Shown piece after piece: positions 9,372 through 38,270 of a stretch of DNA of 64,000 nucleotides (position 1 is the stretch's first letter; every line of letters begins with the position of its first letter). This stretch comes from Clostridiales bacterium (GTDB lineage Bacteria; Bacillota; Clostridia; Lutisporales; Lutisporaceae): assembly GCA_012521375.1 (NCBI GenBank), contig JAAYMO010000109.1, forward strand, positions 1,291 through 65,290, read 5' to 3'. The notes below the pieces were generated by a model, which was given only the letters and a program-made list of their open reading frames with translations, made no database searches and had not been told where the DNA came from. Made by a program: the position numbers and the translations under genes.

Positions 9372-9418
9372 TAATAAAAGTCCATCTGTTTTGGCAATAA
9401 TTGCTCTACAGATGGACT
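9372..9418 (-). terminator. Intrinsic terminator of the aor leader, overlapping riboswitch P1
   Basis: Transcript AGTCCATCTGT-18 nt-ACAGATGGACT-TTTATTA; the first 4 nt belong to the P1 3' strand. Confidence 0.75.
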
Positions 9419-9500: not shown

Positions 9501-9850
9501 TATATATAGTTAAAAGTCATACATTTAATTAACTATTCTACATATATTTGCCAAGTCCTTTTAATATGACTAAAATATTTGAAAATTTTTTAAATTTTAT
9601 TTACTTATATTTAAATTTATTAAATGAGAAGGTAAACTAAATATGTATATGAAAAATATGTAGATTTTATAAAAATATTGTGGCAAAATGTAAGCTGTAT
9701 AATTTATGATTTAATAAATCAAGTTTTGATGAAAAGGGATAAGCATATAAAAGGTATTGGTGTGGACATGCTTATAACATTTGAAATGAGAAATGCAAAT
9801 ATTAAATAAAATATTTAAGCTTATTCAGTGAGGTATTAGGAGGTCATAGT

Positions 9851-25476: not shown

Positions 25477-26673
25477 TTACATAGCTTTTTTTATAGCATT
25501 TTCGATACTTTTTATAAAACCTTTGCTGGTTTTTGTTGCGCCACTTATAACATCTGCTTCAATTCTTTGTTTTCTTATTATCTCTTTAGGAAGCACCATA
25601 AAAACTTCTTCATACCAGCCCCTGCTTTCATGATGATCCAGGACTGTTATATCCACTATTTTCCCATTTTCAATTCTCACTTCTGTGATGATTCTCGCAG
25701 CAAAGCCTTTTGCTTCACCTTGGTATACTCCGTCTTTCAGATTGCTAAGAGGAATGCTGCTTATCATAGAAGTTCCACCAAAAACCTTAGGCATCCCTAA
25801 CCAAATTACGAAGAACAATATAAACATTAAAGCAATATAATTCTTTGATGATATATTTTTTCTTCCTGATTTTAATCCTAAATTGGTATCTTCATTTATT
25901 TTACAATTACCTATACACTCCAGACATCTGATACATTCAGGAGATATGGAATCTTCCTTTGGTGAAAGTTTCAATGCCATAGTGCAGCTATTAAGGCACC
26001 CATTGCAGTGAATGCAGCTTTTACTCTGTTTAATTGAAATCAGGCTGAAGGAACTAAAAAGGGTTTGGGCTGCACCTAAGGGACAAAGGTACCTACAGAA
26101 AAATCTCGGTATAACTGCTGAGACAATAAATATACCAGCCAGTACCGCAAATCCTGTTTTCATTACTTTCCATGCAGAAAACAGTTTCGGTATGTTCAAC
26201 ATGGCTCTCCAAGGTGAGAATTCTGCTATTGTTGCACCATAGCCTAATATGGATGCCAGCAGAACAGCCAATAATATTGGGTATTTGGTATAAAGAGGAT
26301 TAAAATCTTTTTTTCCTAAACCATTATGTTTAGAGAAAACAAGTTTTTTGCCAATCCAATTTGATATATCCTGTATCGTTCCTATAGGACATATCCAACC
26401 GCAAAAGAACCTTCCTCCTGCAATAGATATTACCAATATGGATATTGTCAGTGCCATGCTTCTGTTTATGCCATCAAATTCATAACTGCTGTCGTTTAAA
26501 GATTCTTTTAGGGCACTCCAAGCTCCATAAGGATTCAGGTCTCCTATGCTTATGATTTTAAAATTGACCAGTTGGCTTGTATAAAGATTATATTGTATTA
26601 ATACTAGTAACAGTAAGACTAAAATAGCAATTTGTATGCTTGTCCTAATGTTTTTACTTCTATTTTCCTTCAT
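25477..26673 (-). CDS. Membrane 4Fe-4S protein (NapH/NosR/YccM-like) with C-terminal FMN-binding domain
   Basis: GRFFCGWICPIG, RFFCRYLCPLGA, CIHCNGCLNSC, CIRCLECIGNC; DGVYQGEAKG...ADVISGATKTS. Confidence 0.88.
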   Translation of the reverse strand: MKENRSKNIRTSIQIAILVLLLLVLIQYNLYTSQLVNFKIISIGDLNPYGAWSALKESLNDSSYEFDGINRSMALTISILVISIAGGRFFCGWICPIGTIQDISNWIGKKLVFSKHNGLGKKDFNPLYTKYPILLAVLLASILGYGATIAEFSPWRAMLNIPKLFSAWKVMKTGFAVLAGIFIVSAVIPRFFCRYLCPLGAAQTLFSSFSLISIKQSKSCIHCNGCLNSCTMALKLSPKEDSISPECIRCLECIGNCKINEDTNLGLKSGRKNISSKNYIALMFILFFVIWLGMPKVFGGTSMISSIPLSNLKDGVYQGEAKGFAARIITEVRIENGKIVDITVLDHHESRGWYEEVFMVLPKEIIRKQRIEADVISGATKTSKGFIKSIENAIKKAM

Positions 26674-26692
26674 AATCCATTACTTCCTAATA

Positions 26693-28270
26693 TTAGTTTT
26701 TGCTTATCTTCGCTATATCTTTGATATAGGTTTCTCCAATGATTGCATCTGCTCCCTTTTCCACAGGCAGTAGATAGGAACTATCCAATTGATTTGGATT
26801 TATATCATATTGTTTCCCATCAGAATCAAATAGAGTTAAAGTATCGTTGTCTTCTATAATCATACCTGCTTCCTCTAAAACTTCTCCTAAATTCATACCC
26901 TTGCCTTGGGGCAGGTCTTCTTCACCGATAACCTTCATCATTATCTCAGGGAAAATAACAGCATCTTTAGTGGTTGAGAAATGGCTCATTTCCTTGACGT
27001 TCATGCCCAACTTGAAAGCCGGACCTATGTTCATAGGTGCATTTTCACCGCCGGTTTTTATATAATACCTATCTCTTACCATGCTGATGGTTTCATTCTT
27101 TACCAGGCCATCTGAACCTACCATGGTGAAAAAGCCATTCACATCTACATAGTCAAATTTGGATAATATTTTACCTACTAAGTAGGACTCATCTTTGCTG
27201 CCGTAATATTCATAGTAATAAGGTTCTATGTCTTTAACAATGGAACTGAATATATGGACATTTTGTATGTCTTTAGGTGAAATATGGGTATAAAGCTCAA
27301 TTCTATTGACCATTTTAACCCAGTATACTCCCATCTCATCGGGTATCACTACTCTTACCGGCTTTTCTTCCCTGATTATTTCTTCATCATCAAACCTGAT
27401 GCCCAGGATAATGTCTCTATTTTGTATAATGTCTTTGCTTATCATAGTGTAATAGTTGTCTCTACCTGTGACGCCTATGGCTTCATAATCATTGATATCT
27501 ATGCCGTGTTTTTCCAATACATCTTTGAGAAGAGGACCCTCAGCTTTAATATCTATTTTAACCCCGGTTGTTCTTTGCAGTATAGTTTGAGTTGTAACCT
27601 GGGGAAAGGTCTTCAAATCTTCGATATTTACCCTTACGGAGTTATTTTCAGGCCAAGCTATCAAAAAGCTGTTTTCATCCTTATCCCACATTTCCTGTGG
27701 GATAAAGTTTTCAACCGGATCCATGGTTTTATTGTTGACAAGATAATTCCAAGCACCTATAGCTGAATTCACATTGTTGATTACAGCTTGGCTGGATACG
27801 CTGGCTCCTGTAACCTGAACTATATCGGTAGGTTTTTCAGGGTCTAACACTACTCTGTTTAGATATTCAAATAGTTCTAAACCTTTAAATCTATCGGTAA
27901 ACCAGCTTTCCATAATAGGGTCAGCATAGTCAGGAGTGTCTCCCTGTTCGAGAATATGTATTCCTGCAATTTGTTTCTTTTCATTATCCATGACCACCAA
28001 AGTTTTTATGATTCCTTCATAGCCGGTTCCTGAAGCTACAAAAGCAGCAGGTATATTATCTATACTATATATTTTTTCAACGCCAGGAAAATTTTCCTTT
28101 ATTATGAGATTGTCTAAGGCTCCATCAATAAGTTTTATAGTTGTTGCTGTTGGCAGTATTTCCTTTATCAAGGCTTTTTCCTTTCTTGTGTCATTGTTTA
28201 ACCATAAAGCTGCAGATATTATTGTTACGATTATGATGAGAGTTAATATATAGATCATATTTTTTTTCAT
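26693..28270 (-). CDS. Membrane-anchored protein: RnfG-like FMN-binding domain plus sulfite-oxidase-fold (Oxidored_molyb-like) domain and two degenerate repeats
   Basis: N-terminal TM; SGTGYEGII...ETP-like GDTPDY...FTDRFKG...DIVQVTGASVSS; then EDLKTFP...EGPLLKDVL...GRDNY...PVRVVIP...WVKMVNRIEL. Confidence 0.75.
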   Translation of the reverse strand: MKKNMIYILTLIIIVTIISAALWLNNDTRKEKALIKEILPTATTIKLIDGALDNLIIKENFPGVEKIYSIDNIPAAFVASGTGYEGIIKTLVVMDNEKKQIAGIHILEQGDTPDYADPIMESWFTDRFKGLELFEYLNRVVLDPEKPTDIVQVTGASVSSQAVINNVNSAIGAWNYLVNNKTMDPVENFIPQEMWDKDENSFLIAWPENNSVRVNIEDLKTFPQVTTQTILQRTTGVKIDIKAEGPLLKDVLEKHGIDINDYEAIGVTGRDNYYTMISKDIIQNRDIILGIRFDDEEIIREEKPVRVVIPDEMGVYWVKMVNRIELYTHISPKDIQNVHIFSSIVKDIEPYYYEYYGSKDESYLVGKILSKFDYVDVNGFFTMVGSDGLVKNETISMVRDRYYIKTGGENAPMNIGPAFKLGMNVKEMSHFSTTKDAVIFPEIMMKVIGEEDLPQGKGMNLGEVLEEAGMIIEDNDTLTLFDSDGKQYDINPNQLDSSYLLPVEKGADAIIGETYIKDIAKISKN

Positions 28271-28280
28271 GATTAGCTCC

Positions 28281-29042
28281 TCATTCTATGATTATTTTTA
28301 CAATATTTTGTACCCATTGAGGCTTGTTAACATCACCAGGCTCTTTTTGACCAATTACCAGTCTAAAAGGGGCCCCTTTATTGGGATCGTAATCTTTACC
28401 GTTTTCATGCCATGCGATTATCACAGGATATCTCTTTTCCGGATTATGTTCGTCTATATAGTCTTCCTTCAGGGTTTGTTCTACAGACATTTCGTGTTTA
28501 TATCCATCTGATGCTATGAAAGTGATGGTAGAAGCACTATCTTTTAAAATTCCTTTATCCAAAATTGCTTTTATCTTTATTCCTTTAAAGTGGAAGTATT
28601 CTTCAGTGCCGTAGCTGTTAAGTGAAAAGAAGTCATCTTCATAATAAGCATCTTTCATGGATTTTAGTTCATCAAGAGAAAGTGTTATTGGATTTTCTAT
28701 ACCAGAACCTTCGATATGTAGGAGTGTTTTTTCATCTGGCTTTGTTTGAGGCGTTTCTTCTGGAAGTTTTTCTGGCTGTTGGGATTTTGGTTTCTCAGCC
28801 TCAGATATAGTATCTGTATCAGATGTAGTTTCTTCGGGTTTCTCTACAGTAGTTTCATCCTGCTTTGAAGTTTCTACATCTGTTTTATTTTCATCTTGAA
28901 TATTTTTATCTGATTCCTCTACTTGCTGAGTTTCGCCGGCTTCTTCAGCGTTTGGAGCAGAAGGGGTATTCGATGAACATGCTGTTAAAAGGATTAAGGA
29001 TAATATTAAGACAAATAATATAAATAAAGTTTTATTTTTCAT
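28281..29042 (-). CDS. Lipoprotein with a low-complexity linker and one Oxidored_molyb-like domain
   Basis: Lipobox LTAC; E/T/K/P-rich linker; LHIEGSGIENPITLSLDELKSM...FKGIKIKAIL...FIASDGY...IIAWHENG...GAPFRLVIGQ...WVQNIVKIII; no Cys in the domain. Confidence 0.8.
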   Translation of the reverse strand: MKNKTLFILFVLILSLILLTACSSNTPSAPNAEEAGETQQVEESDKNIQDENKTDVETSKQDETTVEKPEETTSDTDTISEAEKPKSQQPEKLPEETPQTKPDEKTLLHIEGSGIENPITLSLDELKSMKDAYYEDDFFSLNSYGTEEYFHFKGIKIKAILDKGILKDSASTITFIASDGYKHEMSVEQTLKEDYIDEHNPEKRYPVIIAWHENGKDYDPNKGAPFRLVIGQKEPGDVNKPQWVQNIVKIIIE

Positions 29043-29103: not shown

Positions 29104-32100
29104 TTACATTTTTTCCATTATCATTCTTATGATCTTAGAAGCTTCAGCCCTGGTAGATTGACCTTGAGGATCAAAACTACCATCAGGCTTGCCATTTATA
29201 ATTCCTGACAGTTGAACAGCTTTTACTGCATCTTTAGCCCATTCACTGATGCTGGAAGCATCTGTGAATACTATTTCTTCAGCAACTGTTCCTAGTTCTA
29301 TTCCCATAGCTTTTGCAAAATTGTATATAGTCACAGCCATTTCTTCTCTAGTTATTACATCATTTGGACGGAAATTGTCATTTTCAACACCTGCAGGAAT
29401 ATTTTTTGCACCAGCCCAATTTACATAATCTGTATACCATTGGCCGTCTTCTATGTCTTTGAATATTCCAGTGGAAGCTGAACCCAAATCTATATCCTTG
29501 AGAGTGCTTACCAGGAACTTGATAAATTCTGCCCTTGTAAGTGTATTATTGGGGCTGAATTTATTGTCTCCTGTACCTTCTGTTATACCTTTGGAATATA
29601 AGTATTCTATATGTTCTTGTGCCCAGTGACCAACTATGTCGATGAAAGAAGCATCAGACGCAGCTGTTACATTGCCATCAACAACGACCTTAACCACATT
29701 TTTCAAGCAAGCTCCTTGATTCATGTGAGTGATCATTCTTATAGGACCGCCTTCGTTTCCACTGGTATAACCATCACTGGATGTATCAGGAACCAATGGG
29801 TTTCCGTCTCCTGCATAGGCTAGAATTATTATCTTTCTTTCCAGTCCATCAGCTATTCCTTTTTCTAGAGCTTCTTTACCGAATACGGATAGAACATCTC
29901 TTGAGAAGCCATCCGAAGCTATAACTTTTACAGATGTAAGTTCTGCGCCTTTCTTCAATCCTGCTTTCTGGGAGATAAGCTTCCATAGGTCAAGACCTTC
30001 ATGTTGATGTTCACCTATATAGGTATAGCTATCTCTGATTATTATATCGTCCATAGCTTCTAATTCACGCAGACTGAATTTCACTGGTTTTTCCAGTGCA
30101 GTTCCTTCTAATTCAAGGAAATAAGTGTCCAAGTATTGGCTATAGGTTGGACTCATATCGTGTTTCCAACTGGTTGTAGCACCTGCATTTACGGTTATTT
30201 TTACTACATTTTTTAATATGCTTTGGGAGTTCATATCATCTGCAGATTTTTGTCCAACAACTAGGTATAATGGACCACCTGAGTTGTTGTATGCAGGGTC
30301 ATATCCTTTGGAATCCTTATCCAATACCAATGGTTTACCGTCATCTATATTGGCATTGTCTACGCTGCTGGAACCATAGGCCAATATCATCTTCAAGTCA
30401 GCTGCTTTTGTTGCTCCGTTAATATAATCTGATTTCATCACATCGGATAATGAGAAAGTTAGAGTTTTGCCGTCTGCTGCGGTTACCACTATTTCGCTTG
30501 CATTGGATTGAAGGCCTACATCTTCAGATTTTAAGAAGCTGTATAAATCTATACCTCTATATCTGATTTGGTCTTCTGATGCAGCTTTTTTAATGTTATA
30601 GTCACCTGTTACTACAAGGTTTTGTTTGCCTTCTATCTCAGAAACTTTAAAGGTTTTAGGTGTAGTTAGTTTTGCTCCTGGACCTTCAACTATCAAAGTG
30701 CTGTCAGCCAACTCTTTGTAAGGAGCTTCTATATGGGCATATTTATCTGGTTGGAGATTTATCTTAATAGAGGTTACACTACTTAAACTTTTAGCTTCAG
30801 ACATTACTACCATCAATGGGCCGCCATCATTTTTCACATTTACTTTTTCACCGGTACCATCTGTATATGAGCTTATATAACCTGCAGCATTTTTATCAGC
30901 TACCATAGGTGTACCGTTTTTAGCAAATGCTAGCGCAGATTTCTTATTTGCATCAAAAATTTCATCCAGTGAAACTGTCAAGTTTGAGTCAGCGCTATTA
31001 AATGTAACTGTTCCTTTGTTGCCCGGTATTTGAACTTTTTCTTTTAAGAAATAACTTAAGTCTACACCTTCATATAGATCGCTGTATATGTTGTCACCTT
31101 TTTTCACATCGAAGAATGATTTTACCTTAGCTTTTACTTTTTCTGTGTTCCTTACATTCGAACCGTAAATCATATTTTCTATGTTTTCTACAGTGAAGGT
31201 TTCATTCTTTAAAGTACTTCCATCCATGCCTATTACTGTTACGTTTATCTTTTCTGAAGCTAGATCTTTGTAGATCTTATCCGGATTTCCAGAGTGGGTA
31301 CTATAGTTTACATCATTGCCTACTATTATTTTATCAAGGAATTTTGCCTGTTTTGAACCGTTGGCATGATGGTATTCAATTTTTCCAGATATAATTCTTA
31401 ATGGTCCACCGTCATTACCTAAACCGCTCTTGTAGCCATCGAGGGTATTCCTTATCACATAAGGATATCCATTAACTCCATAGGCAACTAACACTGGATA
31501 ACCAATGGACCTCAGATCATCTTCAATCCTGGAAATATATTTGCCGTCATTTTGGTCAGCAGGATTCTTTTCATAATATCCGAATAAATCTGGATCGGAT
31601 ATTTGAGCTATTGTGAATTTATCAAAATCTGTATATCCATCTGTTGCAGTAAAATGAACTAATGTATCAGAATCCGCTCCAATTGCCATTGTTTCAGGAA
31701 TTCCTGCCTTTTTCAACAGTTCCCAAAGCTTTACTCCCTCATATTCATTTACATACCAATATGTGGAGTTTGATAAGCTATATTCAGCCCTATAGCCCAT
31801 ACCATTAGGATCTGGTTTGCCTTCTTTATATTTTACCATGTCTTCTAGTTGCTTTACAGTATAGTTGACTTCTCTTCCCAGCTTATCTCCTGTTATGGTA
31901 ATGATGTACTCAGAGTTTTCAGGAGTATTATAAGGTGCTTTATCATGCTTATAGCCTGGAGTTTCCTTTTCGGCTACATAAACATATGCCATATTGCCGA
32001 ATTTTGTATAGCTAGGATTTGGATCTTGCTTGAATACAGATTTATCGTAAACTAATTTTATGCATCCATCTTCGTTGCCTAAGGTTTTATCTCCGCCTGC

Positions 32101-33651
32101 TTCTCCATCATAGACGAATGGTTTAGCATTAGAGCCATCAAGGTTTGATGTTCCATAAGCCACTATTATGGGTTTGCCTGCAGCTTCTGCTTGTTCAATT
32201 TCTTCCAGAGTAAATTCAGCTATAGTCTGCCTTACCCTGTTTTTTATAAGAACTTTATAAGCTGTATTTGTTAGCTTAATGCCTGTCTCACCTGAAGTCA
32301 TATTTTTTAGCAGGTGCTGAAGTCTTATTCCTTCATATTTAAGAGTGGTTTCTTTACCATCTCTTATGTCCGTATAATCTCCACGGAAAACTCCTGCATC
32401 TTGATTTTCCATCTCTCTTATTGAAAGGGGTATACTAGCCTCAAGACCTGGGCCTTCAAAGGTCAATGTTGCTCCCGTTATAACATCTACATTGTATGGT
32501 TCGTCTCCTGGCAAGCCGCCGTTTGTTATGTGTTTATAAGGGCTTTTTGAAAAATCAGTGCCGGAAACAGGAGTCACTTTTATTTCATTTACCATTTTTA
32601 TTAAAGAACCATTTTGGCTGTAAATTCTAAAGTATCCTACTATTGAAGGATCATCTTTGGCAGTATCATATACCGCCTCTGTATCATTAGCATTAGTTCC
32701 TGTTTCATATACAAGTATGTATTGTTTCGATGAATCTTTGATTTCTCCTATAGTTACAGGGTCATTTTTATAACCGTCGGCAGATATGAATTCTACCTTA
32801 TCATTATCGCTATAACCTGCAAGCAGATCCTTTAGAGGTACACCTACACAGTAATCTGCTGTTGGTCCTGATTTTCTCATGTAGGTCCAGTTGCCTTTTA
32901 CCCTTGGCATCAGGAGAATATCTTCTCTTGTATAGCTTTTGCTTCCTATTTTTAATACATCAGGAAGCTGGTCACCTACGACTATTTTCTGTATTGTCTT
33001 GTTATAAAGAGGATTATTGATTTCGTCTACATGTTGCTGCCCAACCATCAACAGTGGATAATCACTAGCTGAAAGAGCTTCCAGTGAAGATTCTTTTGGT
33101 ATTACATCCGGATTGCCTCTGTCACCTGCTCTTTCAAAGGCAATAATTGTATCAACTGGAATCTTGCCAGTGGAATCGCCACTGCTAAGTCTTGGGAAGT
33201 AATATCTCTCTAAGCCTAAGGATGGAGTGATTAACTTCTTTGAAGTAGTAGAATCTCCTTTATGAGAAGGATCAAAAGTAACTGTATACCCGTCGGATGC
33301 TACAAAGCCGATTTTATACTGGTCATACTTGTCCTTTTTTAAGCCAGATTTATTGAGCAAATCCTCTACCTTAACACCTTTACCCAAATAAATGCTTTTT
33401 GTGGGAGTAGTATTTATGGCAGAAAATAATGCTGTGGTTTGCGGCATTGACTTCAGTTCTTCCAGTGTATAGGACTTTTCATTTGTCAAACCAATGCCTT
33501 GACCTGTCACTACTAAAATAGGTTCTTCTGTATTTGGCTTCCATTCTTCAGCGAAAGCAATGGTTCCCAATGATGAGATTATTAAGGATAAGATAATTAT
33601 AAAAGACAAACTCTTTCTGAATAAAGCTTTCATGTTATAATACCGATTCAT
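29104..33651 (-). CDS. 1515-aa SLH-anchored surface protein with 7 tandem Oxidored_molyb-like domains
   Basis: Signal peptide (AFA|EE); seven repeats of the pattern L.V.G..FTL.EL..M / EGV.L..LL / A.DG[YF] / I.AY..G.P / [ND]GGP.R / KNV.KI.V; three SLH domains (about 29646-29104: FIDIVGHWA..TRAEF, FKDI..QWY..TREEM, FTDA..EWA..TRAEA). Confidence 0.85.
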   Translation of the reverse strand: MNRYYNMKALFRKSLSFIIILSLIISSLGTIAFAEEWKPNTEEPILVVTGQGIGLTNEKSYTLEELKSMPQTTALFSAINTTPTKSIYLGKGVKVEDLLNKSGLKKDKYDQYKIGFVASDGYTVTFDPSHKGDSTTSKKLITPSLGLERYYFPRLSSGDSTGKIPVDTIIAFERAGDRGNPDVIPKESSLEALSASDYPLLMVGQQHVDEINNPLYNKTIQKIVVGDQLPDVLKIGSKSYTREDILLMPRVKGNWTYMRKSGPTADYCVGVPLKDLLAGYSDNDKVEFISADGYKNDPVTIGEIKDSSKQYILVYETGTNANDTEAVYDTAKDDPSIVGYFRIYSQNGSLIKMVNEIKVTPVSGTDFSKSPYKHITNGGLPGDEPYNVDVITGATLTFEGPGLEASIPLSIREMENQDAGVFRGDYTDIRDGKETTLKYEGIRLQHLLKNMTSGETGIKLTNTAYKVLIKNRVRQTIAEFTLEEIEQAEAAGKPIIVAYGTSNLDGSNAKPFVYDGEAGGDKTLGNEDGCIKLVYDKSVFKQDPNPSYTKFGNMAYVYVAEKETPGYKHDKAPYNTPENSEYIITITGDKLGREVNYTVKQLEDMVKYKEGKPDPNGMGYRAEYSLSNSTYWYVNEYEGVKLWELLKKAGIPETMAIGADSDTLVHFTATDGYTDFDKFTIAQISDPDLFGYYEKNPADQNDGKYISRIEDDLRSIGYPVLVAYGVNGYPYVIRNTLDGYKSGLGNDGGPLRIISGKIEYHHANGSKQAKFLDKIIVGNDVNYSTHSGNPDKIYKDLASEKINVTVIGMDGSTLKNETFTVENIENMIYGSNVRNTEKVKAKVKSFFDVKKGDNIYSDLYEGVDLSYFLKEKVQIPGNKGTVTFNSADSNLTVSLDEIFDANKKSALAFAKNGTPMVADKNAAGYISSYTDGTGEKVNVKNDGGPLMVVMSEAKSLSSVTSIKINLQPDKYAHIEAPYKELADSTLIVEGPGAKLTTPKTFKVSEIEGKQNLVVTGDYNIKKAASEDQIRYRGIDLYSFLKSEDVGLQSNASEIVVTAADGKTLTFSLSDVMKSDYINGATKAADLKMILAYGSSSVDNANIDDGKPLVLDKDSKGYDPAYNNSGGPLYLVVGQKSADDMNSQSILKNVVKITVNAGATTSWKHDMSPTYSQYLDTYFLELEGTALEKPVKFSLRELEAMDDIIIRDSYTYIGEHQHEGLDLWKLISQKAGLKKGAELTSVKVIASDGFSRDVLSVFGKEALEKGIADGLERKIIILAYAGDGNPLVPDTSSDGYTSGNEGGPIRMITHMNQGACLKNVVKVVVDGNVTAASDASFIDIVGHWAQEHIEYLYSKGITEGTGDNKFSPNNTLTRAEFIKFLVSTLKDIDLGSASTGIFKDIEDGQWYTDYVNWAGAKNIPAGVENDNFRPNDVITREEMAVTIYNFAKAMGIELGTVAEEIVFTDASSISEWAKDAVKAVQLSGIINGKPDGSFDPQGQSTRAEASKIIRMIMEKM

Positions 33652-33741
33652 AAACCATCCTCCTATTATTTAATTAATATTTTCTACTATTATTAATTAC
33701 TTATATATCAACATCACCTCTCAACGAATTTTCAAGAGAAT

Positions 33742-33773
33742 AAAAAAACTTCTTTTGTGGAAAAGAAGTTTTT
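33742..33773 (-). terminator. Leader terminator of riboswitch no. 2
   Basis: Transcript AAAAACTTCTTTT-CCAC-AAAAGAAGTTTTTTT. Confidence 0.8.
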
Positions 33774-33780
33774 ATACTTT

Positions 33781-33887
33781 GTTACTCCTTTTCACACCGG
33801 AAGGCATTGCAGTTTCCCACAATACCCTATCGTTTTAATCATCATGCAAATAATTACTTGTTTAGATGAATAAAATCGGAGTAGCAT
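33781..33887 (-). ncRNA. Moco/Tuco (Wco) riboswitch no. 2, upstream of the SLH-protein operon
   Basis: Transcript TACTCC-GAT-P2-ACGAT-AGGGTATTGTG-GGAAAC-TGCAATGCCT-TCCGGTGTGAAAA-GGAGTA; antiterminator AAAAGGAGT/ACTTCTTTT possible. Confidence 0.82.
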
Positions 33888-33937
33888 GCCATATTTTATT
33901 GTAAAAACTATCTATTACTAATTATAATGTTAATCAT

Positions 33938-34576
33938 CTAACAATGCAAGTTATGCAGATGTTTTCCTCTGCGCTTTTTAGCTTCATTCTTACTGTTACG
34001 AAGGAAAAGCCCCATTCTCTGTAATTTCATACCAGAGTATTTTTCATAACTTTGTAAAAAGCGTCTTATCATCTCATGTTTTTCTTTTGTAAAAGAAGGG
34101 TTGTTTGTCAGTATAAAAAAGCAAACATTAGCCAGATCAGTCCTAGCATCTCCCCAATTAATTTCTTCAAAGTCCAATCCATATATTTCACCTTTGCTGT
34201 AGATGAAGTTTCTTAAATTTACATCTCCTTTAAGCAATGTATTAGAATTCTTAGATATTTTGTGCAATTGGGAAAACCATAGTGCCAATTTATCAATCCA
34301 TACTCCCGTATCTAATCTTTCTACTAAGTCATTGATCAAATCTCCTTCTATATACTCCATAATCAAACGGTTTTTATCTTTACAGATTATTTTAGGCAAA
34401 TTGATTCCATAATCATAAAGCATTTCTATATTACGATATTCTATATCAAGAAGCTTTTCTTTGTCTGAGGAGAATACCTTCATAATTGCTAACTGATTTT
34501 TTTCTTCTTTATCAATTCTTATCTTATATACCTGATTTCGTTTGCTATAAAGTTTAGCAAGTATTTTTATATTCAC
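33938..34576 (-). CDS. Protein-kinase-like (APH/RIO/Kdo-type) small-molecule phosphotransferase
   Basis: SKRNQVYKI, MKVF, E.RNI, LIMEYIEG, LKGDVNLRNF (His replaced by Lys), GLDFEE; GTG start overlaps the mobB TGA (GTGA). Confidence 0.7.
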   Translation of the reverse strand: MNIKILAKLYSKRNQVYKIRIDKEEKNQLAIMKVFSSDKEKLLDIEYRNIEMLYDYGINLPKIICKDKNRLIMEYIEGDLINDLVERLDTGVWIDKLALWFSQLHKISKNSNTLLKGDVNLRNFIYSKGEIYGLDFEEINWGDARTDLANVCFFILTNNPSFTKEKHEMIRRFLQSYEKYSGMKLQRMGLFLRNSKNEAKKRRGKHLHNLHC

Positions 34577-35076
34577 TTGTCCAACACCCAATCCAATGCT
34601 ACTTTTTCCACCAAATCTGTAAGCCTTTCAATATCGGTAATGGCATTTATTACAGGAAGATGATCATAGCGACATATTTTGTTGCTGATAACGCCGCTTA
34701 ATGCAACTACACCAGTTTTCATATATTTTTTTATATCTTCTACTGATTCAACACAAAGTATTTTGGGAACATCAAAATCTGTAACTCCTTCCAATATCAC
34801 ATAATCCTGTGTATAGAAATTTAAAACCTCCGGCATGGGAAGTCTTCTTTTAAACAATATGTCCGTTTCATAAATCCCTCTGGCGGATACCAGTTCTGCT
34901 CCTGCTTTCCAATGTCTGTATGTATTAGTGCCTTCCGTATCAATGGCAAATTTTTCATAATGGATTTCTTTAACTGTGCCTACAGAATAACTTCTACGAT
35001 TTAATTCTTTTATGAGGCATTCTACTGTTGTGGTTTTGCCAGAACCTGAATATCCATAAATTGATATGACTTTCAT
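34573..35076 (-). CDS. mobB: Molybdopterin-guanine dinucleotide biosynthesis protein B
   Basis: VISIYGYSGSGKTT, VGTVKEIH, DTEGTNTYRHWKAGA, ILEG. Confidence 0.88.
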   Translation of the reverse strand: MKVISIYGYSGSGKTTTVECLIKELNRRSYSVGTVKEIHYEKFAIDTEGTNTYRHWKAGAELVSARGIYETDILFKRRLPMPEVLNFYTQDYVILEGVTDFDVPKILCVESVEDIKKYMKTGVVALSGVISNKICRYDHLPVINAITDIERLTDLVEKVALDWVLDK

Positions 35077-35128
35077 ATACTCGCCTCCTTTGAATTCAGG
35101 GAATTGTATTTAGAGCTTAAATCAACTT

Positions 35129-35854
35129 TTACCAAGATGTTGAAACAATGGCAATTAAAAATATCAATGTAACCACTATAATAGCATAATCTCCTTTTTT
35201 CATATTTAATTTGCGGTAATAGGTTCTAGTAGAATAGGCTCTAAAACCTCTGCATTCCATGGATAAAGATATAAATCTGGCTCTTCTCAATGCTTTTATC
35301 ACAGAAGGGGTCAATATATATGTATATAGGGAAATCTTTTTACCTAGGGGTATTCTTTTTAAGTCAGCCCCTGCCAGTTGGACTGCTATTATGGAGTCAA
35401 TAAACTCTTCTTTAATGAGAGGCAGAAATTTAATTGCAAGAAGAACCATAAATCCAATTTCTTGAGGCATCTTCATGGCTGCAAGTCCATATACCATATC
35501 CATAGGAGATGTGATTAGAATTATCAAAGCTGAATAAATTATTATAGACATTCTCAAGATTATTGATATGCCTGTTTCCAAGCCTTTAGTAGTTAAAATT
35601 TCTATGCCACCGAGAGCCAACAAAGGTTCCCCGCCATGAGTAAAGATGCTTTGAACTAAAGCCAGCACGATAAATACATACCATAATCTTTTAAGTCTCA
35701 TCGTAGCTTTTTTTAAAGATATAGATAATAACATGCATATTGCCAACGTAAGGGTCAATAGCAGTAATAGCGACTTTATCTCTTTCAATATTATTGCTGC
35801 AGATGAGATAAAAAACACAATTACGATTCGAGTCCTGGGATCTAAGTCGATCAT
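35129..35854 (-). CDS. ECF transporter transmembrane T component
   Basis: LDPRT, KFLPLIKEE, SMECRGF; CbiQ/EcfT architecture. Confidence 0.88.
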   Translation of the reverse strand: MIDLDPRTRIVIVFFISSAAIILKEIKSLLLLLTLTLAICMLLSISLKKATMRLKRLWYVFIVLALVQSIFTHGGEPLLALGGIEILTTKGLETGISIILRMSIIIYSALIILITSPMDMVYGLAAMKMPQEIGFMVLLAIKFLPLIKEEFIDSIIAVQLAGADLKRIPLGKKISLYTYILTPSVIKALRRARFISLSMECRGFRAYSTRTYYRKLNMKKGDYAIIVVTLIFLIAIVSTSW

Positions 35855-36510
35855 ATGACTTCAACTCCTTTTGAACTTAAAATAAGGAGTTTGTCAACAT
35901 ATTTTTCAAGAAAATTTGGCTCATGGCTTATTATCATAAAACCTTTTTTTTCACTTTTCAATGTCAGAAGACATTTTTCCAATTGCTTTTTCCGTAGTAT
36001 ATCAAGACCGATGGTAGGTTCATCCATTATCAAATAATCCACATTTCTTGATAATACTGAAGCCAATGCCAGCCTTTGTTTTTCTCCCCGGCTCAGCTTC
36101 ATAGGAGAATCATTTTTATACTTTTCCAATTCAAATAGATCAAGATAATAATTTATTCTATCCTCCATATCTTGATTATCGATTTCGTTTCCATATATAA
36201 AGCTAAAGCTCATCTGCTCCCAAACTGTAGGACAGAATAATTGTTTTTCAGGGTTTTGGAACACATATCCAATCTTACACCCTATTTGGGATAAAGGTAT
36301 GTCTCTAACATTTTGGCCTTCAAGAAGGATTGTTCCTTTCTGAGGTTTTAATATTCCTAACATCAGCTTAATCAAAGTAGTTTTACCGCAACCATTTTCT
36401 CCTATTAATCCTATATGTTGATTTTTCTCTATTACAAAACTAATATTTTTTAATAAGCTAGTATTCTTGTTGTAGGAAAAAGCCAGAGAGTCTATTATAT
36501 AAAAGCTCAT
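35851..36510 (-). CDS. ECF transporter ATPase (A')
   Basis: GENGCGKTT, VFQNPEKQLF, LSRGEKQR, MDEPT; start re-assigned to ATG 36510 by RBS GAGGT. Confidence 0.88.
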   Translation of the reverse strand: MSFYIIDSLAFSYNKNTSLLKNISFVIEKNQHIGLIGENGCGKTTLIKLMLGILKPQKGTILLEGQNVRDIPLSQIGCKIGYVFQNPEKQLFCPTVWEQMSFSFIYGNEIDNQDMEDRINYYLDLFELEKYKNDSPMKLSRGEKQRLALASVLSRNVDYLIMDEPTIGLDILRKKQLEKCLLTLKSEKKGFMIISHEPNFLEKYVDKLLILSSKGVEVI

Positions 36511-37201
36511 TGTTGTCATCAACCTCAATTCTATCTTCAATGTTCCCATTTTTCATAAGCAAAATACTGTTTGCTACCATCAAATTTTTGATGCTATGGT
36601 CTATGATAATAATTGTTTTTCCAGCTTTATTGAGGGATTTTATTACACTTATTATTAATTTTTTATTTTTCCTATCCAATTCAGATAGCACTTCATCCAG
36701 TATTATTATTTCAGGATCCAGGCTTAGAATCGATGCCAATGCTACTAGATGTTTTTGGCCTCCAGAAAGTTGAGAAGGGTTTTTGTATCTTAAAGATTCA
36801 ATGCCTAACATGTCAATAACTTTTTCAACCCTTTTTTCAATCTCTTCATAAGGAAGGCATAGATTTTCCGGAGCAAAGGCTATTTCAGCTTCAACGGTAG
36901 GGAGAAACAGCTGATTGTCCACATCTTGAAACACCATGCCTACTTTCTGGGCTAAATTGGGAAGATTTAAATTTTTTATATCCTCTCCTTCTATAATGAT
37001 ACTTCCATCTATTATGCCCGGCATGCTTTTTGGTATAGCTCCGCATAAGCAGAAGGCTAATGTGGTTTTGCCGCAGCCGCTTAAGCCTGCAATGGAGGTT
37101 ATGGTTCCTTTTTCAATTTTAAAACTGATGGAGTTGAGAATAAGAGGGCTATTTGCTGTATATTTGAAAGATAAATCTTTTACTTCAATTATAGGTTTCA
37201 T
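36458..37201 (-). CDS. ECF transporter ATPase (A)
   Basis: GLSGCGKTT, VFQDVDNQLF, LSGGQK, LDE. Confidence 0.88.
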   Translation of the reverse strand: MKPIIEVKDLSFKYTANSPLILNSISFKIEKGTITSIAGLSGCGKTTLAFCLCGAIPKSMPGIIDGSIIIEGEDIKNLNLPNLAQKVGMVFQDVDNQLFLPTVEAEIAFAPENLCLPYEEIEKRVEKVIDMLGIESLRYKNPSQLSGGQKHLVALASILSLDPEIIILDEVLSELDRKNKKLIISVIKSLNKAGKTIIIIDHSIKNLMVANSILLMKNGNIEDRIEVDDNNELLYNRLSGFFLQQEY

Positions 37202-37710
37202 TCTATTGTTACCTCAAATACATATTTGCACCATCGCTGGCTGAAAGAATCTTTAACTATTATAAGCTGAAAGGGACCACTACCTCCTTTTTTCAAAGTG
37301 CCTAAAGGTTTACCGTCTTTTTCAAATGCCAAATAAACATGATCCGATAAGGCTTCATCTACAGACATAGCTATGACATATCCGTCTAAACCTTTTACCA
37401 GTACCTTTGAAGCAGATTTCAATGCTGAATCATCTATGTCTGCTTTATTCAATAGATCTTTTAATAAGACGCCTCTATATTTTCTCGATTTAGGGCCGGA
37501 GGTAGAGGTATCTTCGGTGGCTTTAAATTGATGATTTTCTAAGGCAGTGATTTCTTCAAAGTTGAGGCTTGCAGTTTCATCACTCCAAACAAAGGTTATG
37601 GTGCCATCTTCCATACTCGGGTTGTTCATGGTTTTCATATTCGCATATGCCAGTGTAAGCGTTGCTATGGCTAATATGGCTATTATCAATACCAATTTAT
37701 TATTTATCAT
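37198..37710 (-). CDS. Membrane-anchored single Oxidored_molyb-like domain protein within the ECF operon
   Basis: N-terminal TM; LNFEEITAL...YRGVLLKDLL...GLDGY...YLAFEKDGKPL...GPFQLII...RWCKYVFEVTIE. Confidence 0.75.
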   Translation of the reverse strand: MINNKLVLIIAILAIATLTLAYANMKTMNNPSMEDGTITFVWSDETASLNFEEITALENHQFKATEDTSTSGPKSRKYRGVLLKDLLNKADIDDSALKSASKVLVKGLDGYVIAMSVDEALSDHVYLAFEKDGKPLGTLKKGGSGPFQLIIVKDSFSQRWCKYVFEVTIE

Positions 37711-38251
37711 ATATATCACCTTGTTTTCTTATAGTTTTAACAATATTGTAAGCTATGAGGCCTCCCAGTCCCCCTGATAATGATGCTGCACTTAGAGAAA
37801 GGAGCAAGGGAATTAGCGGCAAGCGAAAGAATACCATATTTGACAACATAGTACCGGATATATTGGCCAGCAGGCCTAATATAAAGAAGCCTGCCGGGGT
37901 TATGAACTTGTTTCCCAACAATTTGGCTCCTATATCTATCAAAATACCTGGCACTGTATATGTTATGATGCTTATAGCACCATGGTTTCCATAGGCCCCT
38001 GTGATTATTACCAATAAAGCTTGAGTTATGCCAATTAAGCTTCCAGTACCAATTTTTTTAGTGAGGCCTAATCCTAAGACTAACCATAGCATATAAAAGC
38101 CACCTGCAGCAGCACCCCCTGGGATGTAAAGAGGACCTGTTATTATATGAACTAAAGGTACAATAATCGGTTTTATGGCTATACCTAAAGCGGCGGTCAA
38201 GGATATGACTACCAATTCAAACATAGAGAATTTATTCAAAAATTTGCTCAT
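37700..38251 (-). CDS. ECF transporter substrate-binding S component (substrate unknown)
   Basis: 183 aa, about 6 TMs, N-terminal A-x-x-x-A-type helix (SLTAALGIA), Gly-rich KKIGTGSLIG; directly upstream of ECF A, A' and T genes. Confidence 0.8.
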   Translation of the reverse strand: MSKFLNKFSMFELVVISLTAALGIAIKPIIVPLVHIITGPLYIPGGAAAGGFYMLWLVLGLGLTKKIGTGSLIGITQALLVIITGAYGNHGAISIITYTVPGILIDIGAKLLGNKFITPAGFFILGLLANISGTMLSNMVFFRLPLIPLLLSLSAASLSGGLGGLIAYNIVKTIRKQGDIYDK

Positions 38252-38270
38252 ATTACACCTGCTTTTTATA

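What the first reader, a model, noticed from the sequence alone, without database searches (positions are those of the whole stretch)
25477..28270. Extracytoplasmic flavin/Fe-S electron conduit coupled to Moco-fold domains
Seen: [S/T]GA[S/T] motifs in two FMN-binding domains (DVISGAT at 25554-25534; VTGAS near 27814-27800), a NapH/NosR-like membrane protein with CxxxCP motifs and 2 ferredoxin-type clusters, and a direct fusion of an FMN domain to a Moco-fold domain. Known: ApbE flavinylates such motifs in RnfG/NosR-type proteins that pass electrons across the membrane. Inference: electrons are delivered to surface-bound cofactor or metal. No apbE gene is in this window.
Basis: partly seen in the sequence, partly recalled or inferred. 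Interest (0 to 1): 0.62.

Follow-up and report, generated by a model that had tools for sequence, protein, structure and literature searches.

The report
Cofactor-riboswitch-controlled surface flavin electron chain
Two adjacent genes encode a membrane iron-sulfur/flavin protein and a flavin protein fused to a cysteine-less pterin-binding fold; together they most likely carry electrons out of the cell to a molybdenum/tungsten-cofactor-type ligand held at the surface, inside an uptake operon that the cofactor itself switches off, a use of electron transfer I found in no paper.

Summary
Gene A (25477-26673, minus strand) is a NapH-like protein with five membrane helices, two CxxxCP motifs, two 4Fe-4S motifs and an outward-facing C-terminal FMN domain (DVISGAT). 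Gene B (26693-28270, minus strand) has a membrane anchor, an RnfG-fold FMN domain (VTGAS) and a sulfite-oxidase/PruR fold, and no cysteine at all.

- A Moco/W-cofactor riboswitch with a terminator (33769-33893) heads the operon D-C-B-A.
- The 1515-residue S-layer protein D carries a third, conserved flavin-attachment motif (DVITGAT).
- apbE is present elsewhere in the genome, and lies inside the operon in some relatives.
- In 76 loci of Clostridia species, A follows B in 62 of 65. A riboswitch lies upstream in 46 of 50. An ECF importer, MobB, a small kinase and a phosphodiesterase usually lie alongside.

Best reading (confidence 0.4): a flavin chain attached by ApbE reduces, or keeps reduced, a pterin-type cofactor captured at the surface before import. 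Flavin attachment, the ligand and the direction of electron flow are untested.

It is a new variant of the "NapH-like" flavinylated systems. This scan noted the surrounding system before, in this window and in three other genomes.

The parts
25477..26673 (-). Gene A: NapH-like Fe-S membrane protein with C-terminal extracytoplasmic FMN domain (398 aa)
   Evidence: Pfam Fer4_5 twice plus FMN_bind. NCBIfam NapH/MauN 93.8 bits, below the cut-off of 213. Five hydrophobic segments. 62 orthologues with 11 invariant Cys.
26386..26403 (-). CxxxCP motif 1 (CGWICP, aa 91-96), predicted at the cytoplasmic end of TM2
   Evidence: invariant
26080..26097 (-). CxxxCP motif 2 (CRYLCP, aa 193-198), predicted at the cytoplasmic end of TM4
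   Evidence: invariant
25903..26016 (-). Two ferredoxin-type CxxCxxCxxxC motifs (aa 220-230 and 247-257), in the cytoplasmic loop before TM5
   Evidence: Net positive charge of this loop is +4.5 averaged over 62 orthologues.
25489..25707 (-). FMN_bind domain of A (aa 323-395), predicted outside the membrane
   Evidence: Pfam 5e-12. Aligns to the solved FMN4 domain 1 of a Clostridiaceae multi-flavinylated protein (8p2b), DVHSGAT against DVISGAT.
25534..25554 (-). Flavin-attachment motif DVISGAT (acceptor Thr380)
   Evidence: Matches D-x-x-[S/T]-G-A-[S/T] (PMC12052999). SGAT is present in 61/61 orthologues.
26693..28270 (-). Gene B: membrane-anchored RnfG-like FMN domain fused to cysteine-less sulfite-oxidase/PruR-fold modules (525 aa)
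27731..28255 (-). N-terminal signal anchor (aa 6-24) plus RnfG/NqrC-fold domain (to about aa 180)
   Evidence: VIA Z 17.6 to A. woodii RnfG 9eri_G and 15.1 to C. tetanomorphum RnfG 7zc6_G. Profile hit to 7zc6_G at 2e-12.
27800..27814 (-). Flavin-attachment motif VTGAS (acceptor Ser157; Thr in 49 of 66 orthologues)
   Evidence: Aligned to the flavinylated Thr164 motif ITGAT of C. tetanomorphum RnfG. Invariant Q-x-T-G-A-[ST].
27281..27685 (-). Sulfite-oxidase/PruR-fold domain 1 of B (aa 196-330), no Cys
   Evidence: VIA Z 16.6, rmsd 2.2 A over 123 aa to PruR 7kom; Z about 14-15 to sulfite oxidases. Motifs KPVRxVxP and GxYWVK align to SorA. Closest paralogue is the ECF-linked 173-aa protein.
26696..27265 (-). 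C-terminal region of B (aa 336-525): second, divergent sulfite-oxidase-like module with the invariant EPYxYEYYG and NAPMNI..FKLGMNVK motifs
   Evidence: AF2 pLDDT 87. The top ten wide-search hits are all sulfite-oxidase family or PruR, Z 8.7-5.5, then a drop to 4.5. Conservation.
28281..29042 (-). Gene C: lipoprotein with one cysteine-less sulfite-oxidase-fold domain
   Evidence: Pfam Oxidored_molyb 1.7e-9. The only Cys is in the lipobox. Syntenic in nearly all loci.
29104..33651 (-). Gene D: secreted 1515-aa protein with multiple sulfite-oxidase-fold domains and three SLH cell-wall anchors
   Evidence: Pfam SLH three times and Oxidored_molyb; synteny.
32467..32487 (-). Third candidate flavin-attachment site, DVITGAT (aa 389-395 of D), in a linker just before a sulfite-oxidase-fold domain and outside any Pfam FMN_bind hit
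   Evidence: 52 of the 112 D-like ORFs in the 76 loci carry an [ST]GA[ST] motif, which in the large orthologues listed is Y-N-[VI]-D-A-I-[TS]-G-A-T-[LF]-T. A seven-residue motif suffices for ApbE.
33769..33893 (-). Moco/W-cofactor riboswitch aptamer heading D-C-B-A
   Evidence: Rfam RF01055, 75.5 bits, E 1.9e-16. The equivalent element is found upstream in 46 of 50 related loci.
33739..33778 (-). 13-bp hairpin followed by a U-run: intrinsic terminator of the riboswitch (OFF switch)
33938..39356 (-). Neighbouring second riboswitch-controlled operon. In transcription order: riboswitch (39238-39356), phosphodiesterase, ECF S component, 173-aa sulfite-oxidase-fold protein, EcfA, EcfA', EcfT, MobB, small kinase. 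In most relatives it is contiguous with D-C-B-A.

Best explanation
A and B form the membrane and cell-surface part of a flavin electron chain whose flavins are attached by ApbE.

Proposed path:
1. Cytoplasmic reducing equivalents enter A through its two ferredoxin-type 4Fe-4S clusters and the two CxxxCP sites at the inner face of the membrane. No menaquinone genes were found, so a soluble low-potential donor is more likely than a quinol.
2. Electrons cross the membrane and reach the FMN bound covalently to Thr380 on A's outward-facing C-terminal domain.
3. They pass to the FMN on Ser157 of the RnfG-like domain of B, and possibly on to a third FMN on the S-layer protein D.
4. The acceptor is a pterin-type ligand (molybdopterin, or Mo/W cofactor, or a breakdown product) held in the cysteine-less PruR-like pocket fused to B's flavin domain.
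5. Reduction keeps or restores the oxidation-prone cofactor in the reduced form that such pockets prefer. It is then passed to the paralogous 173-aa binder and the ECF importer.

The whole unit is transcribed only when the cell's own Mo/W cofactor is scarce, because the riboswitch is an OFF switch.

Shown here: domain make-up, predicted topology, conservation, synteny, the riboswitch, and apbE in the genome.
Inferred: flavin attachment, the donor, the direction of flow, the ligand, and the purpose.
For: Domains and motifs:
- Domains, motifs and their conservation in A and B are established.

Topology:
- Net charge is +3.2, +3.9 and +4.5 for the N-terminus, loop 2 and the Fe-S loop. It is +0.7, +0.2 and -1.7 for loop 1, loop 3 and the FMN domain, averaged over 62 orthologues.

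Folds:
- The N-domain of B has the RnfG fold (Z 17.6). Its acceptor residue aligns with the experimentally flavinylated Thr164 of C. tetanomorphum RnfG.
- The FMN domain of A aligns with the solved FMN4 domain 1 of a multi-flavinylated protein, 8p2b.
- B aa 196-330 matches the PruR pterin binder (Z 16.6, rmsd 2.2 A over 123 aa). PruR binds tetrahydromonapterin preferentially (PMC11194511).
- That domain's closest paralogue is the ECF-linked 173-aa protein.

ApbE:
- apbE is in the genome and looks like a lipoprotein.
- apbE is the first gene after the riboswitch, directly before C-B-A, in loci L078 and L094.

Regulation and synteny:
- The riboswitch with its terminator lies upstream of D-C-B-A.
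- In 76 loci, A follows B in 62 of 65 and a riboswitch lies upstream in 46 of 50.
- In most Tissierellia-type loci the module continues on the same strand, behind a single riboswitch match, into E173, S component, phosphodiesterase, E173, EcfA, EcfA', EcfT, MobB and kinase.

Other:
- The split form (a small FMN_bind protein plus a roughly 370-aa sulfite-oxidase-like lipoprotein) also sits behind Moco riboswitches beside the ECF module in other families.
- No menA or mqnA was found in the 97%-complete genome.
Against: - No ligand has been shown. The Cys-bearing hairpin appears shortened, as in PruR, and the PruR authors say that pocket is too small for whole Moco.
- B lacks the Asp that opens the canonical seven-residue ApbE motif, and in this genome it has Ser rather than Thr as acceptor. 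Ser lowers flavin attachment by 10-55% in tests.
- Families with the split form have no NapH-like gene in the locus. L023 and L089 have B without A. So A is not indispensable to the binding system.
- Most carriers can make the cofactor de novo: MoaA, MoaC and MoeA are in this window, and MoaE is in 4 of 5 other carriers.
- How electrons would cross the membrane in any NapH/NosR-type protein is not established, and no NapH-type membrane core matched A by sequence among solved structures.
- The AF2 model is of low confidence around the flavin site (aa 153-156, pLDDT below 50).
Confidence: 0.4

Rival explanations
1. The redox chain serves metal acquisition rather than the pterin. The cysteine-less sulfite-oxidase-fold domains hold molybdate or tungstate (or thio- or mineral-bound forms) in what was the oxyanion pocket. 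The flavins change the metal's redox or ligation state so that it can be released and taken up. This would parallel the flavinylated iron-reductase systems of iron uptake.
For: - Moco riboswitches commonly control metal transporters. One in this window heads a tungstate/molybdate-type ABC transporter with moeA and moaA.
- In one family the FMN_bind plus sulfite-oxidase-like pair sits next to a FecCD/BtuC-type ABC importer with DUF364 and FmdE proteins.
- B has many invariant Arg, Lys and Tyr residues.
Against: - The fold match is to a pterin binder.
- The constant partners point to a phosphorylated or nucleotide-linked organic cofactor: a vitamin-type ECF S component, an NPP-type phosphodiesterase, MobB and a small kinase.
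- From general chemistry, reducing Mo(VI) or W(VI) generally lowers solubility, and tungstate is very hard to reduce with a flavin.
Confidence: 0.15
2. This is a generic Gram-positive electron outlet. A, B and D form a flavin 'wire' through the wall to external acceptors or to a flavin reductase. The sulfite-oxidase-fold domains serve only as scaffolds or docking modules, perhaps even cradling the isoalloxazine ring, which is a benzo-pteridine. The link to the cofactor operon is regulatory or incidental.
For: - There are three candidate flavin sites from the membrane to an SLH-anchored protein.
- In at least 11 Sedimentibacter-type loci a FAD_binding_2 plus FMN_bind extracytosolic reductase ends the operon.
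- Meheust et al. 2021 describe NapH-like modules as used modularly with many reductases.
- The carriers include the iron reducer Geosporobacter ferrireducens.
Against: - A respiratory outlet has no evident reason to be switched off by Mo/W cofactor. Yet the riboswitch is found upstream in 46 of 50 loci.
- D has only one flavin motif among about seven domains.
- The linkage to the ECF importer, MobB and kinase is the most constant feature.
Confidence: 0.15
3. B (and C and D) are true extracytoplasmic Mo/W enzymes with an unusual cysteine-free metal site. The cofactor is loaded outside the cell, and A and B-FMN feed electrons to a catalytic centre, as in an MsrP-like reductase.
For: - The sulfite-oxidase fold and signature motifs KPVRxVxP and GxYWVK are retained.
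- A flavin domain fused to a Moco-type domain recalls the way electron-transfer modules are paired with such enzymes.
- NCBI annotates homologues as 'molybdopterin-dependent oxidoreductase'.
Against: - There is no Cys in B, and none conserved in 66 orthologues.
- There is no twin-arginine signal on B, C, D or E173, so no cytoplasmic cofactor insertion.
- Pfam reports no Mo-co dimerisation domain.
- The riboswitch is an OFF type, which is the opposite of what an enzyme that uses the cofactor would need.
Confidence: 0.08

Closest known systems
'NapH-like' flavinylated extracytosolic electron-transfer systems (Meheust et al., eLife 2021, PMC8238504), including NosR and PceC
   Same: A PF12801 Fe-S membrane protein with CxxxCP motifs and cytoplasmic 4Fe-4S motifs, joined to an extracytosolic FMN_bind domain that ApbE can flavinylate. 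The unit is used modularly with an outer redox partner.
   Different: - The FMN domain is C-terminal, after an extra fifth helix. Most described cases have it at the N-terminus (1926 of 2465 clusters).
- The partner is not a respiratory reductase but a flavin domain fused to a cysteine-less pterin-binding fold.
- The unit is under a Moco/W-cofactor riboswitch and sits beside an ECF importer.
- Neither 'molyb' in the paper's text nor 'PF00174' or 'Oxidored_molyb' in its held supplements gave a hit.
RnfG / NqrC (covalent-FMN subunits of Rnf and Na+-NQR; 9eri_G, 7zc6_G)
   Same: The N-terminal half of B has the same anchor helix, fold and FMN attachment site (Z 17.6 and 15.1).
   Different: No Rnf or Nqr membrane subunits are adjacent. 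The domain is fused to sulfite-oxidase-fold modules and paired with a NapH-like protein.
PruR periplasmic pterin-binding proteins (A. tumefaciens, Vibrio, Klebsiella; PDB 7kos/7kou, 7kom, 7kp2, 7rkb; PMC11194511)
   Same: A secreted sulfite-oxidase fold without the Mo-ligand cysteine and apparently with a shortened Cys hairpin. It is the top-scoring match to B aa 196-330 (Z 16.6, against 14-15 for sulfite oxidases).
   Different: - PruR is a stand-alone sensor that regulates the c-di-GMP enzyme DcpA in Proteobacteria.
- Here the fold is fused to a flavin domain and repeated in four proteins of Clostridia.
- It is linked to a Mo/W-cofactor riboswitch and an importer.
- The PruR contact residues (PW motif, N102, Y104, W160) could not be mapped here.
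Sulfite-oxidase-family Moco enzymes (SorA, chicken SO, YedY/MsrP)
   Same: Fold and the motifs corresponding to YPLRLVVP and GTYWVKHL of SorA.
   Different: No Mo-ligand Cys, no Tat signal, no dimerisation domain. Expression is repressed rather than induced by the cofactor.
Listeria flavin-based extracellular electron transfer (FmnB/PplA, with the ECF-like FmnA/EetB flavin exporter; PMC9973259)
   Same: A Gram-positive system with ApbE-type flavin attachment of surface proteins and an ECF-type transporter encoded next to the flavoproteins.
   Different: - The membrane entry point is a NapH-like Fe-S protein, not Ndh2/DmkA with a quinone. No menA or mqnA was found.
- The ECF S component here belongs to Pfam PF09819 (ABC_cobalt).
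- The locus is cofactor-regulated.

Membership tests
NapH/MauN quinol dehydrogenase (TIGR02163; NF007013) | Score above the curated family cut-off | tested here: not met
   93.8 bits against a cut-off of 213, and 87.1 against 234. It is a homologue of the superfamily, not an equivalent.
NapH/MauN quinol dehydrogenase (TIGR02163; NF007013) | Four-helix core with two CxxxCP motifs and two C-terminal 4Fe-4S motifs | tested here: met
NapH/MauN quinol dehydrogenase (TIGR02163; NF007013) | Works with NapG/NapA and a quinol pool | tested here: not met
   No Nap genes in the operon. No menA or mqnA was found in the 97%-complete genome, which is not proof of absence.
NapH-like flavinylated system (operational definition of Meheust et al. 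2021) | A PF12801 protein within a gene cluster that encodes an extracytosolic FMN_bind domain or ApbE | tested here: met
   A carries both, and B adds a second FMN_bind domain. The definition is quoted.
ApbE substrates | Motif D-x-x-[S/T]-G-A-[S/T] in an extracytosolic segment | tested here: met
   A has DVISGAT and D has DVITGAT. B has VQVTGAS without the leading Asp. That matches the flavinylated C. tetanomorphum RnfG (VAITGAT), and D-to-A has only a minor effect.
ApbE substrates | A flavin transferase encoded in the genome and exported | tested here: met
   One ApbE, E 5.9e-94, with a lipoprotein-like N-terminus. ApbE was found in 4 of 5 related carriers.
ApbE substrates | Covalent FMN actually attached | not testable with these tools
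   Needs mass spectrometry or in-gel fluorescence.
Sulfite-oxidase (SUOX) family Moco enzymes | Moco-binding fold | tested here: met
   Pfam PF00174 4e-12. Z 14-15 to sulfite oxidase, SorA and SoxC.
Sulfite-oxidase (SUOX) family Moco enzymes | Conserved cysteine that ligates Mo | tested here: not met
   B has no Cys. No Cys column is conserved in 16 or 66 orthologues.
Sulfite-oxidase (SUOX) family Moco enzymes | Cofactor loaded in the cytoplasm, hence a cytoplasmic location or Tat export | tested here: not met
   The N-termini of B, C, D and E173 have Sec-type anchors or lipoboxes and no RR motif.
PruR-type pterin-binding proteins | Secreted sulfite-oxidase fold lacking the Cys, with a truncated hairpin | tested here: met
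   Z 16.6, rmsd 2.2 A over 123 of 134 residues to 7kom. Only about 9 residues lie between TTG and the next conserved Gly, where sulfite-oxidase enzymes have a long hairpin. This is my reading and is an inference.
PruR-type pterin-binding proteins | Pterin-contact residues (PW motif, Asn102, Tyr104, Trp160) and measured pterin binding | tested here: inconclusive
   There was no sequence-level match to PruR at E up to 10, and residue-level structural alignment was not available. The invariant D271-x-Y273 and W317 are candidates only.
PruR-type pterin-binding proteins | Operon partner DcpA (GGDEF/EAL) | tested here: not met
   None in the operon.
Rnf/Nqr complexes | The RnfG/NqrC-fold subunit is encoded with the membrane subunits RnfA/D/E | tested here: not met
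   None are adjacent. The genome's RnfD fragment lies on another contig.

The most novel reading that the evidence does not exclude
This would be the redox arm of a bacterial system that scavenges ready-made molybdenum/tungsten pterin cofactor. An ApbE-flavinylated chain (NapH-like protein, then an RnfG-like flavin fused to a pterin pocket, then a flavin on the S-layer protein) would act as an extracytoplasmic pterin/cofactor reductase. It would repair or hold the captured cofactor in its reduced state so that it can be bound, trimmed and imported by an ECF transporter. That would be a first case both of bacterial Moco/W-cofactor uptake and of redox-assisted vitamin salvage.
Probability: 0.3. 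Interest if true: 0.85.

Novelty: new variant of a known kind. Interest (0 to 1): 0.66.

Why it matters
Most 'NapH-like' flavinylated systems have no known job. This one comes with unusually strong contextual clues about its job.
- A riboswitch names the metabolite class.
- The terminal fold is a pterin binder.
- An importer sits next door.

If the reading holds, it gives three things:
- A concrete function for an orphan class of extracytosolic flavoproteins.
- Evidence that anaerobes of digesters and sediments invest electrons in salvaging the very labile Mo/W cofactor.
- An experimental handle (three flavin sites and a soluble binding domain) on whether bacteria exchange this cofactor at all.

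It also corrects the database name 'molybdopterin-dependent oxidoreductase', which is given to proteins that cannot ligate Mo in the family's way.

Tried and rejected
Neighbourhoods came instead from the genome search, the fetch from genomes and the search for related loci.
- Meheust 2021: neither 'molyb' in the text nor 'PF00174', 'Oxidored_molyb' or 'PF20353' in the held supplements gave a hit. The stored files may be cut short.
- Huang/Light 2024 (PMC11334425) has no mention of molybdenum, pterin or riboswitch.
- Sequence-profile search of B's sulfite-oxidase domain against the PDB reached SorA and sulfite oxidase but not PruR, so pocket residues could not be mapped.
- I asked whether the domain of D that follows its flavin motif is a special relative of B's domain. 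It is not. B's domain is closest to the ECF-linked 173-aa protein, then C, then D's first domain.
- I asked whether carriers lack MPT synthase, as a salvage auxotrophy would predict. MoaE was not found in this genus (0 of 2) but is present in 4 of 5 other carriers. I therefore rejected it as a general pattern.
- A canonical Moco enzyme reading is rejected: no Cys, no Tat signal, OFF riboswitch.
- A Nap-type quinol dehydrogenase reading is rejected: score below cut-off, no Nap partners, no quinone genes found.
- The spore-coat CotF gene downstream (24929-25417) is conserved next to A in the closest relative (L029), but it has its own ribosome-binding site and an unrelated function. I did not count it as part of the system.

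Full report
**What is there.** All genes lie on the minus strand.
- Gene A, 25477-26673 (398 aa), and gene B, 26693-28270 (525 aa), are the last two genes of a four-gene run D-C-B-A.
- D, 29104-33651, is a 1515-aa secreted protein with several Oxidored_molyb-type domains and three SLH cell-wall anchors.
- C, 28281-29042, is a lipoprotein with one such domain.

**Protein A.**
- Pfam gives Fer4_5 twice (9e-20) and FMN_bind at aa 323-395 (5e-12).
- It has CGWICP and CRYLCP motifs, two CxxCxxCxxxC motifs, five hydrophobic segments, and DVISGAT at 25554-25534.
- NCBIfam places it nearest NapH/MauN and the C-terminal part of NosR, but far below their cut-offs.

**Protein B.**
- It has an N-terminal anchor helix, FMN_bind at aa 83-171, VTGAS at 27814-27800, and Oxidored_molyb at aa 207-331.
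- It has no cysteine at all.

**Is it more than chance?** Yes.
- In 62 A orthologues all 11 core cysteines are invariant, and SGAT is present in all 61 retrieved orthologues.
- In 66 B orthologues the motif Q-[VIL]-T-G-A-[ST] is always present. No cysteine is conserved.

**Topology.**
- Hydrophobic segments of A lie at about aa 8-26, 73-97, 132-150, 170-193 and 280-298.
- Across 62 orthologues the net charge is +3.2 (N-terminus), +3.9 (loop 2) and +4.5 (Fe-S loop). It is +0.7 (loop 1), +0.2 (loop 3) and -1.7 (FMN domain).
- This puts the CxxxCP and 4Fe-4S motifs inside the cell, as in the accepted NapH model (my own knowledge). The extra fifth helix puts the FMN domain outside.
- B has a short, basic N-terminus followed by one helix, so the rest of the protein is outside.
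- None of B, C, D or the 173-aa protein has a twin-arginine motif.

**Structure of B.**
- An AlphaFold2 model of B (mean pLDDT 79) matches RnfG of A. woodii over aa 1-179 (Z 17.6) and RnfG of C. tetanomorphum (Z 15.1).
- Over aa 196-330 it matches the pterin-binding protein PruR (7kom: Z 16.6, rmsd 2.2 A, 123 of 134 residues). That is slightly better than its match to sulfite oxidases (Z 14-15).
- The C-terminal 196 residues, folded alone (pLDDT 87), resemble the same fold again but weakly. The top ten hits are all sulfite-oxidase family or PruR (Z 8.7-5.5), and the next hit is 4.5.
- This region holds the most conserved sequence in the protein: EPYxYEYYG, GFFTM..DGL.KNE and NAPMNI.P.FKLGMNVK.
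- A profile of B aligns its flavin site with ITGAT of C. tetanomorphum RnfG. Thr164 of that protein carries covalent FMN experimentally (PMC9588780).
- The FMN domain of A aligns with the solved FMN4 domain 1 of a Clostridiaceae multi-flavinylated protein, 8p2b.

**The flavin transferase.**
- The genome has one apbE, on another contig (E 5.9e-94). Its N-terminus resembles a lipoprotein signal.
- Its other likely clients are a LysM-FMN_bind-FAD_binding_2 reductase, a 261-aa protein with two FMN_bind domains, and Rnf. Rnf is seen only as an RnfD fragment at a contig end.
- So apbE is not specific to this system here.
- In two Desulfoscipio geothermicus loci (L078, L094), however, apbE is the first gene after a Moco riboswitch and stands directly before C-B-A. 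It is also present in loci L100 and L102.
- The published minimal ApbE motif is D-x-x-[S/T]-G-A-[S/T]. Replacing the Asp has little effect, and Ser is a poorer acceptor than Thr (PMC12052999).
- A fits the motif perfectly. B lacks the Asp, as clostridial RnfG does, and in this lineage has Ser.

1. An Rfam Moco/tungsten-cofactor riboswitch lies at 33769-33893, between the upstream kinase gene and D (75.5 bits).
   - It is followed at once by a 13-bp hairpin and a U-run.
   - The aptamer's 3' strand (AAAAGGAG) can instead pair with the 5' arm of that hairpin (CUUCUUUU). This is my reading of the sequence.
   - So it is wired as an OFF switch, and D-C-B-A is made when the cofactor is scarce.
   - The window holds three more such riboswitches: before the ECF operon (39238-39356), before a tungstate/molybdate-type ABC transporter with moeA and moaA (44363-44482), and at 9401-9510.
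2. D carries a third perfect ApbE motif, DVITGAT (32487-32467).
   - It lies in a linker just before one of its sulfite-oxidase-fold domains and outside any Pfam FMN_bind hit.
   - 52 of the 112 D-like ORFs carry an [ST]GA[ST] motif. In the large orthologues listed it is Y-N-[VI]-D-A-I-[TS]-G-A-T-[LF]-T.
   - The candidate flavin chain therefore reaches the S-layer.

**Comparative genomics.**
- A pattern scan of one genome per species returned 76 loci. They come from Lutispora, Proteiniborus, Sedimentibacter, Gudongella, Schnuerera, Tissierella, Clostridium ultunense, Geosporobacter ferrireducens, Desulfoscipio, Syntrophomonadaceae and Anaerovorax.
- The closest relative is a Lutispora MAG, 82% identical over B.
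- A follows B directly in 62 of 65 loci with enough downstream sequence. The script counted 60, and L052 and L068 are start-codon artefacts.
- A covariance model built from ten riboswitches finds one upstream of the first D or C gene in 46 of 50 loci with enough upstream sequence.
- In the Tissierellia-type loci, D-D-C-B-A continues on the same strand into the 173-aa protein, S component, phosphodiesterase, a second 173-aa protein, EcfA, EcfA', EcfT, MobB and the kinase. Usually only one riboswitch is found for the whole array.
- In the window's own lineage the same two blocks are swapped, and each has its own riboswitch.
- In other Clostridia families B is split into a small FMN_bind protein and a lipoprotein of about 370 aa. 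This pair again sits behind a Moco riboswitch and beside the ECF module, but with no NapH-like gene in the locus. NapH-like genes lie elsewhere in those genomes.
- So the pairing of a flavin with a pterin fold is the constant feature, and A is the usual but not universal way of feeding it.

**What it most likely does.**
- The riboswitch logic ties the unit to supply of the cofactor, not to its use.
- The constant partners point to an organic, phosphorylated, possibly nucleotide-linked pterin cofactor rather than a bare metal. They are a vitamin-type ECF S component, an NPP-type phosphodiesterase, MobB and a small kinase.
- B's first sulfite-oxidase-fold domain is most similar to the ECF-linked 173-aa protein. 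It therefore probably binds the same ligand that is handed to the importer.
- PruR, the nearest solved fold, prefers the tetrahydro form of its pterin (PMC11194511).
- From general knowledge, molybdopterin and Moco are notoriously prone to oxidation, and FMN enzymes such as E. coli NfsB have dihydropteridine reductase activity.
- I therefore propose that A, B and perhaps D form an extracytoplasmic reductase that keeps or restores the captured cofactor in its reduced form.
- No menA or mqnA was found, so the donor is more likely cytoplasmic and enters through A's ferredoxin-type clusters.
- Every step beyond domain identity, predicted topology, synteny and regulation is inference. I give this reading 0.4.

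**Rivals.**
- Metal mobilisation, 0.15. It is favoured by the ABC importer seen next to the split form. It is disfavoured by the fold match, the partners and the chemistry.
- A generic flavin 'wire' or a feed to a flavin reductase, 0.15. In at least 11 Sedimentibacter-type loci a FAD_binding_2 plus FMN_bind reductase ends the operon. This reading does not explain the riboswitch or the ECF linkage.
- A true Cys-less Mo/W enzyme, 0.08. It conflicts with Sec export and with the OFF switch.

**Known or new?**
- Meheust et al. 2021 defined 'NapH-like' flavinylated systems (2465 clusters, most of unknown function and most with an N-terminal FMN domain). This unit meets that operational definition.
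- Searches of that paper for 'molyb', 'PF00174' and related terms gave no hit. Searches of the later flavinylation paper for molybdenum, pterin and riboswitch gave none. The ApbE review was searched only for motif terms.
- Two full-text searches of the library found no paper that describes such a system.
- Database names are generic or misleading: 'FMN-binding protein', 'RnfG subunit', 'molybdopterin-dependent oxidoreductase'.
- I class it as a new variant of a known kind.
- This scan has already noted the surrounding surface-binder and ECF system, in this window and in three other genomes.
- The new points here are the conserved NapH-like partner, the predicted topology, the third flavin site, apbE inside some operons, and the closeness of B's domain to the ECF-linked binder.

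**Limits.**
- E-values from the covariance model are rough.
- The related genomes are kin, so the counts overstate independence.
- Residue-level structural alignment to PruR was not available.
- The model has low confidence at the flavin loop.

Noticed in passing
window 32467-32487 (-), within gene D: There is a perfect ApbE motif, DVITGAT, in a linker of the 1515-aa SLH protein, outside any Pfam FMN_bind hit. 52 of the 112 D-like ORFs in the related loci carry an [ST]GA[ST] motif, which in the large orthologues listed is Y-N-[VI]-D-A-I-[TS]-G-A-T. It is a candidate 'naked' flavin tag next to a pterin-fold domain.
   Followed up: partly
L078:8248-9312 and L094:8290-9363 (Desulfoscipio geothermicus MAGs); also L100, L102: apbE is encoded inside the locus. 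In L078 and L094 it lies directly after a Moco riboswitch and before C-B-A.
   Followed up: partly
L087:19331-21217 and at least 10 other Sedimentibacter/Tissierellia loci: An extracytosolic-type reductase of about 630 aa (FAD_binding_2 plus C-terminal FMN_bind) follows the kinase at the end of the array on the same strand. Its substrate is unknown, and it may be a second client of the NapH-like protein.
   Followed up: partly
L025:8864-15946 (also L022, L024, L027): In another Clostridia family the split FMN_bind plus sulfite-oxidase-like pair is followed by DUF364/DUF4213 ('heavy-metal chelation'), an FmdE-like protein and ORFs that look like a FecCD/BtuC-type ABC importer (judged by eye, not searched). 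The ECF module comes after these.
   Followed up: partly
window 38271-39356 (-): The ATG listed as the start of the phosphodiesterase ORF (39314) lies inside the riboswitch aptamer (39238-39356). The real start is probably further downstream.
   Followed up: no
own genome (G000), whole: No menA or mqnA (menaquinone) match was found in the own genome. No MoaE (MPT synthase) match was found in the two genomes of this genus (G000, G194). MoaA, MoaC and two MoeA genes are in the window, and MoaE is present in 4 of 5 other carriers. The assembly is 97% complete in 308 contigs, so absence is not proven.
   Followed up: partly
window 24929-25417 (-): A CotF-family spore-coat gene lies 60 nt downstream of A, with a terminator-like hairpin after it. 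The same neighbour is seen in the closest Lutispora MAG (L029). It is probably an unrelated unit.
   Followed up: no
window 33769-33893 (-): In the RNA fold the aptamer shows only two hairpins inside P1. It may therefore belong to the P3-less class that Regulski et al. 2008 associated with the tungsten cofactor. This was not checked against the Rfam structure.
   Followed up: no
window 39665-39878 (+): A T-box leader (135 bits) lies before the 1034-aa ORF at 39921-43025, which looks like isoleucyl-tRNA synthetase by eye. It is ordinary.
   Followed up: no
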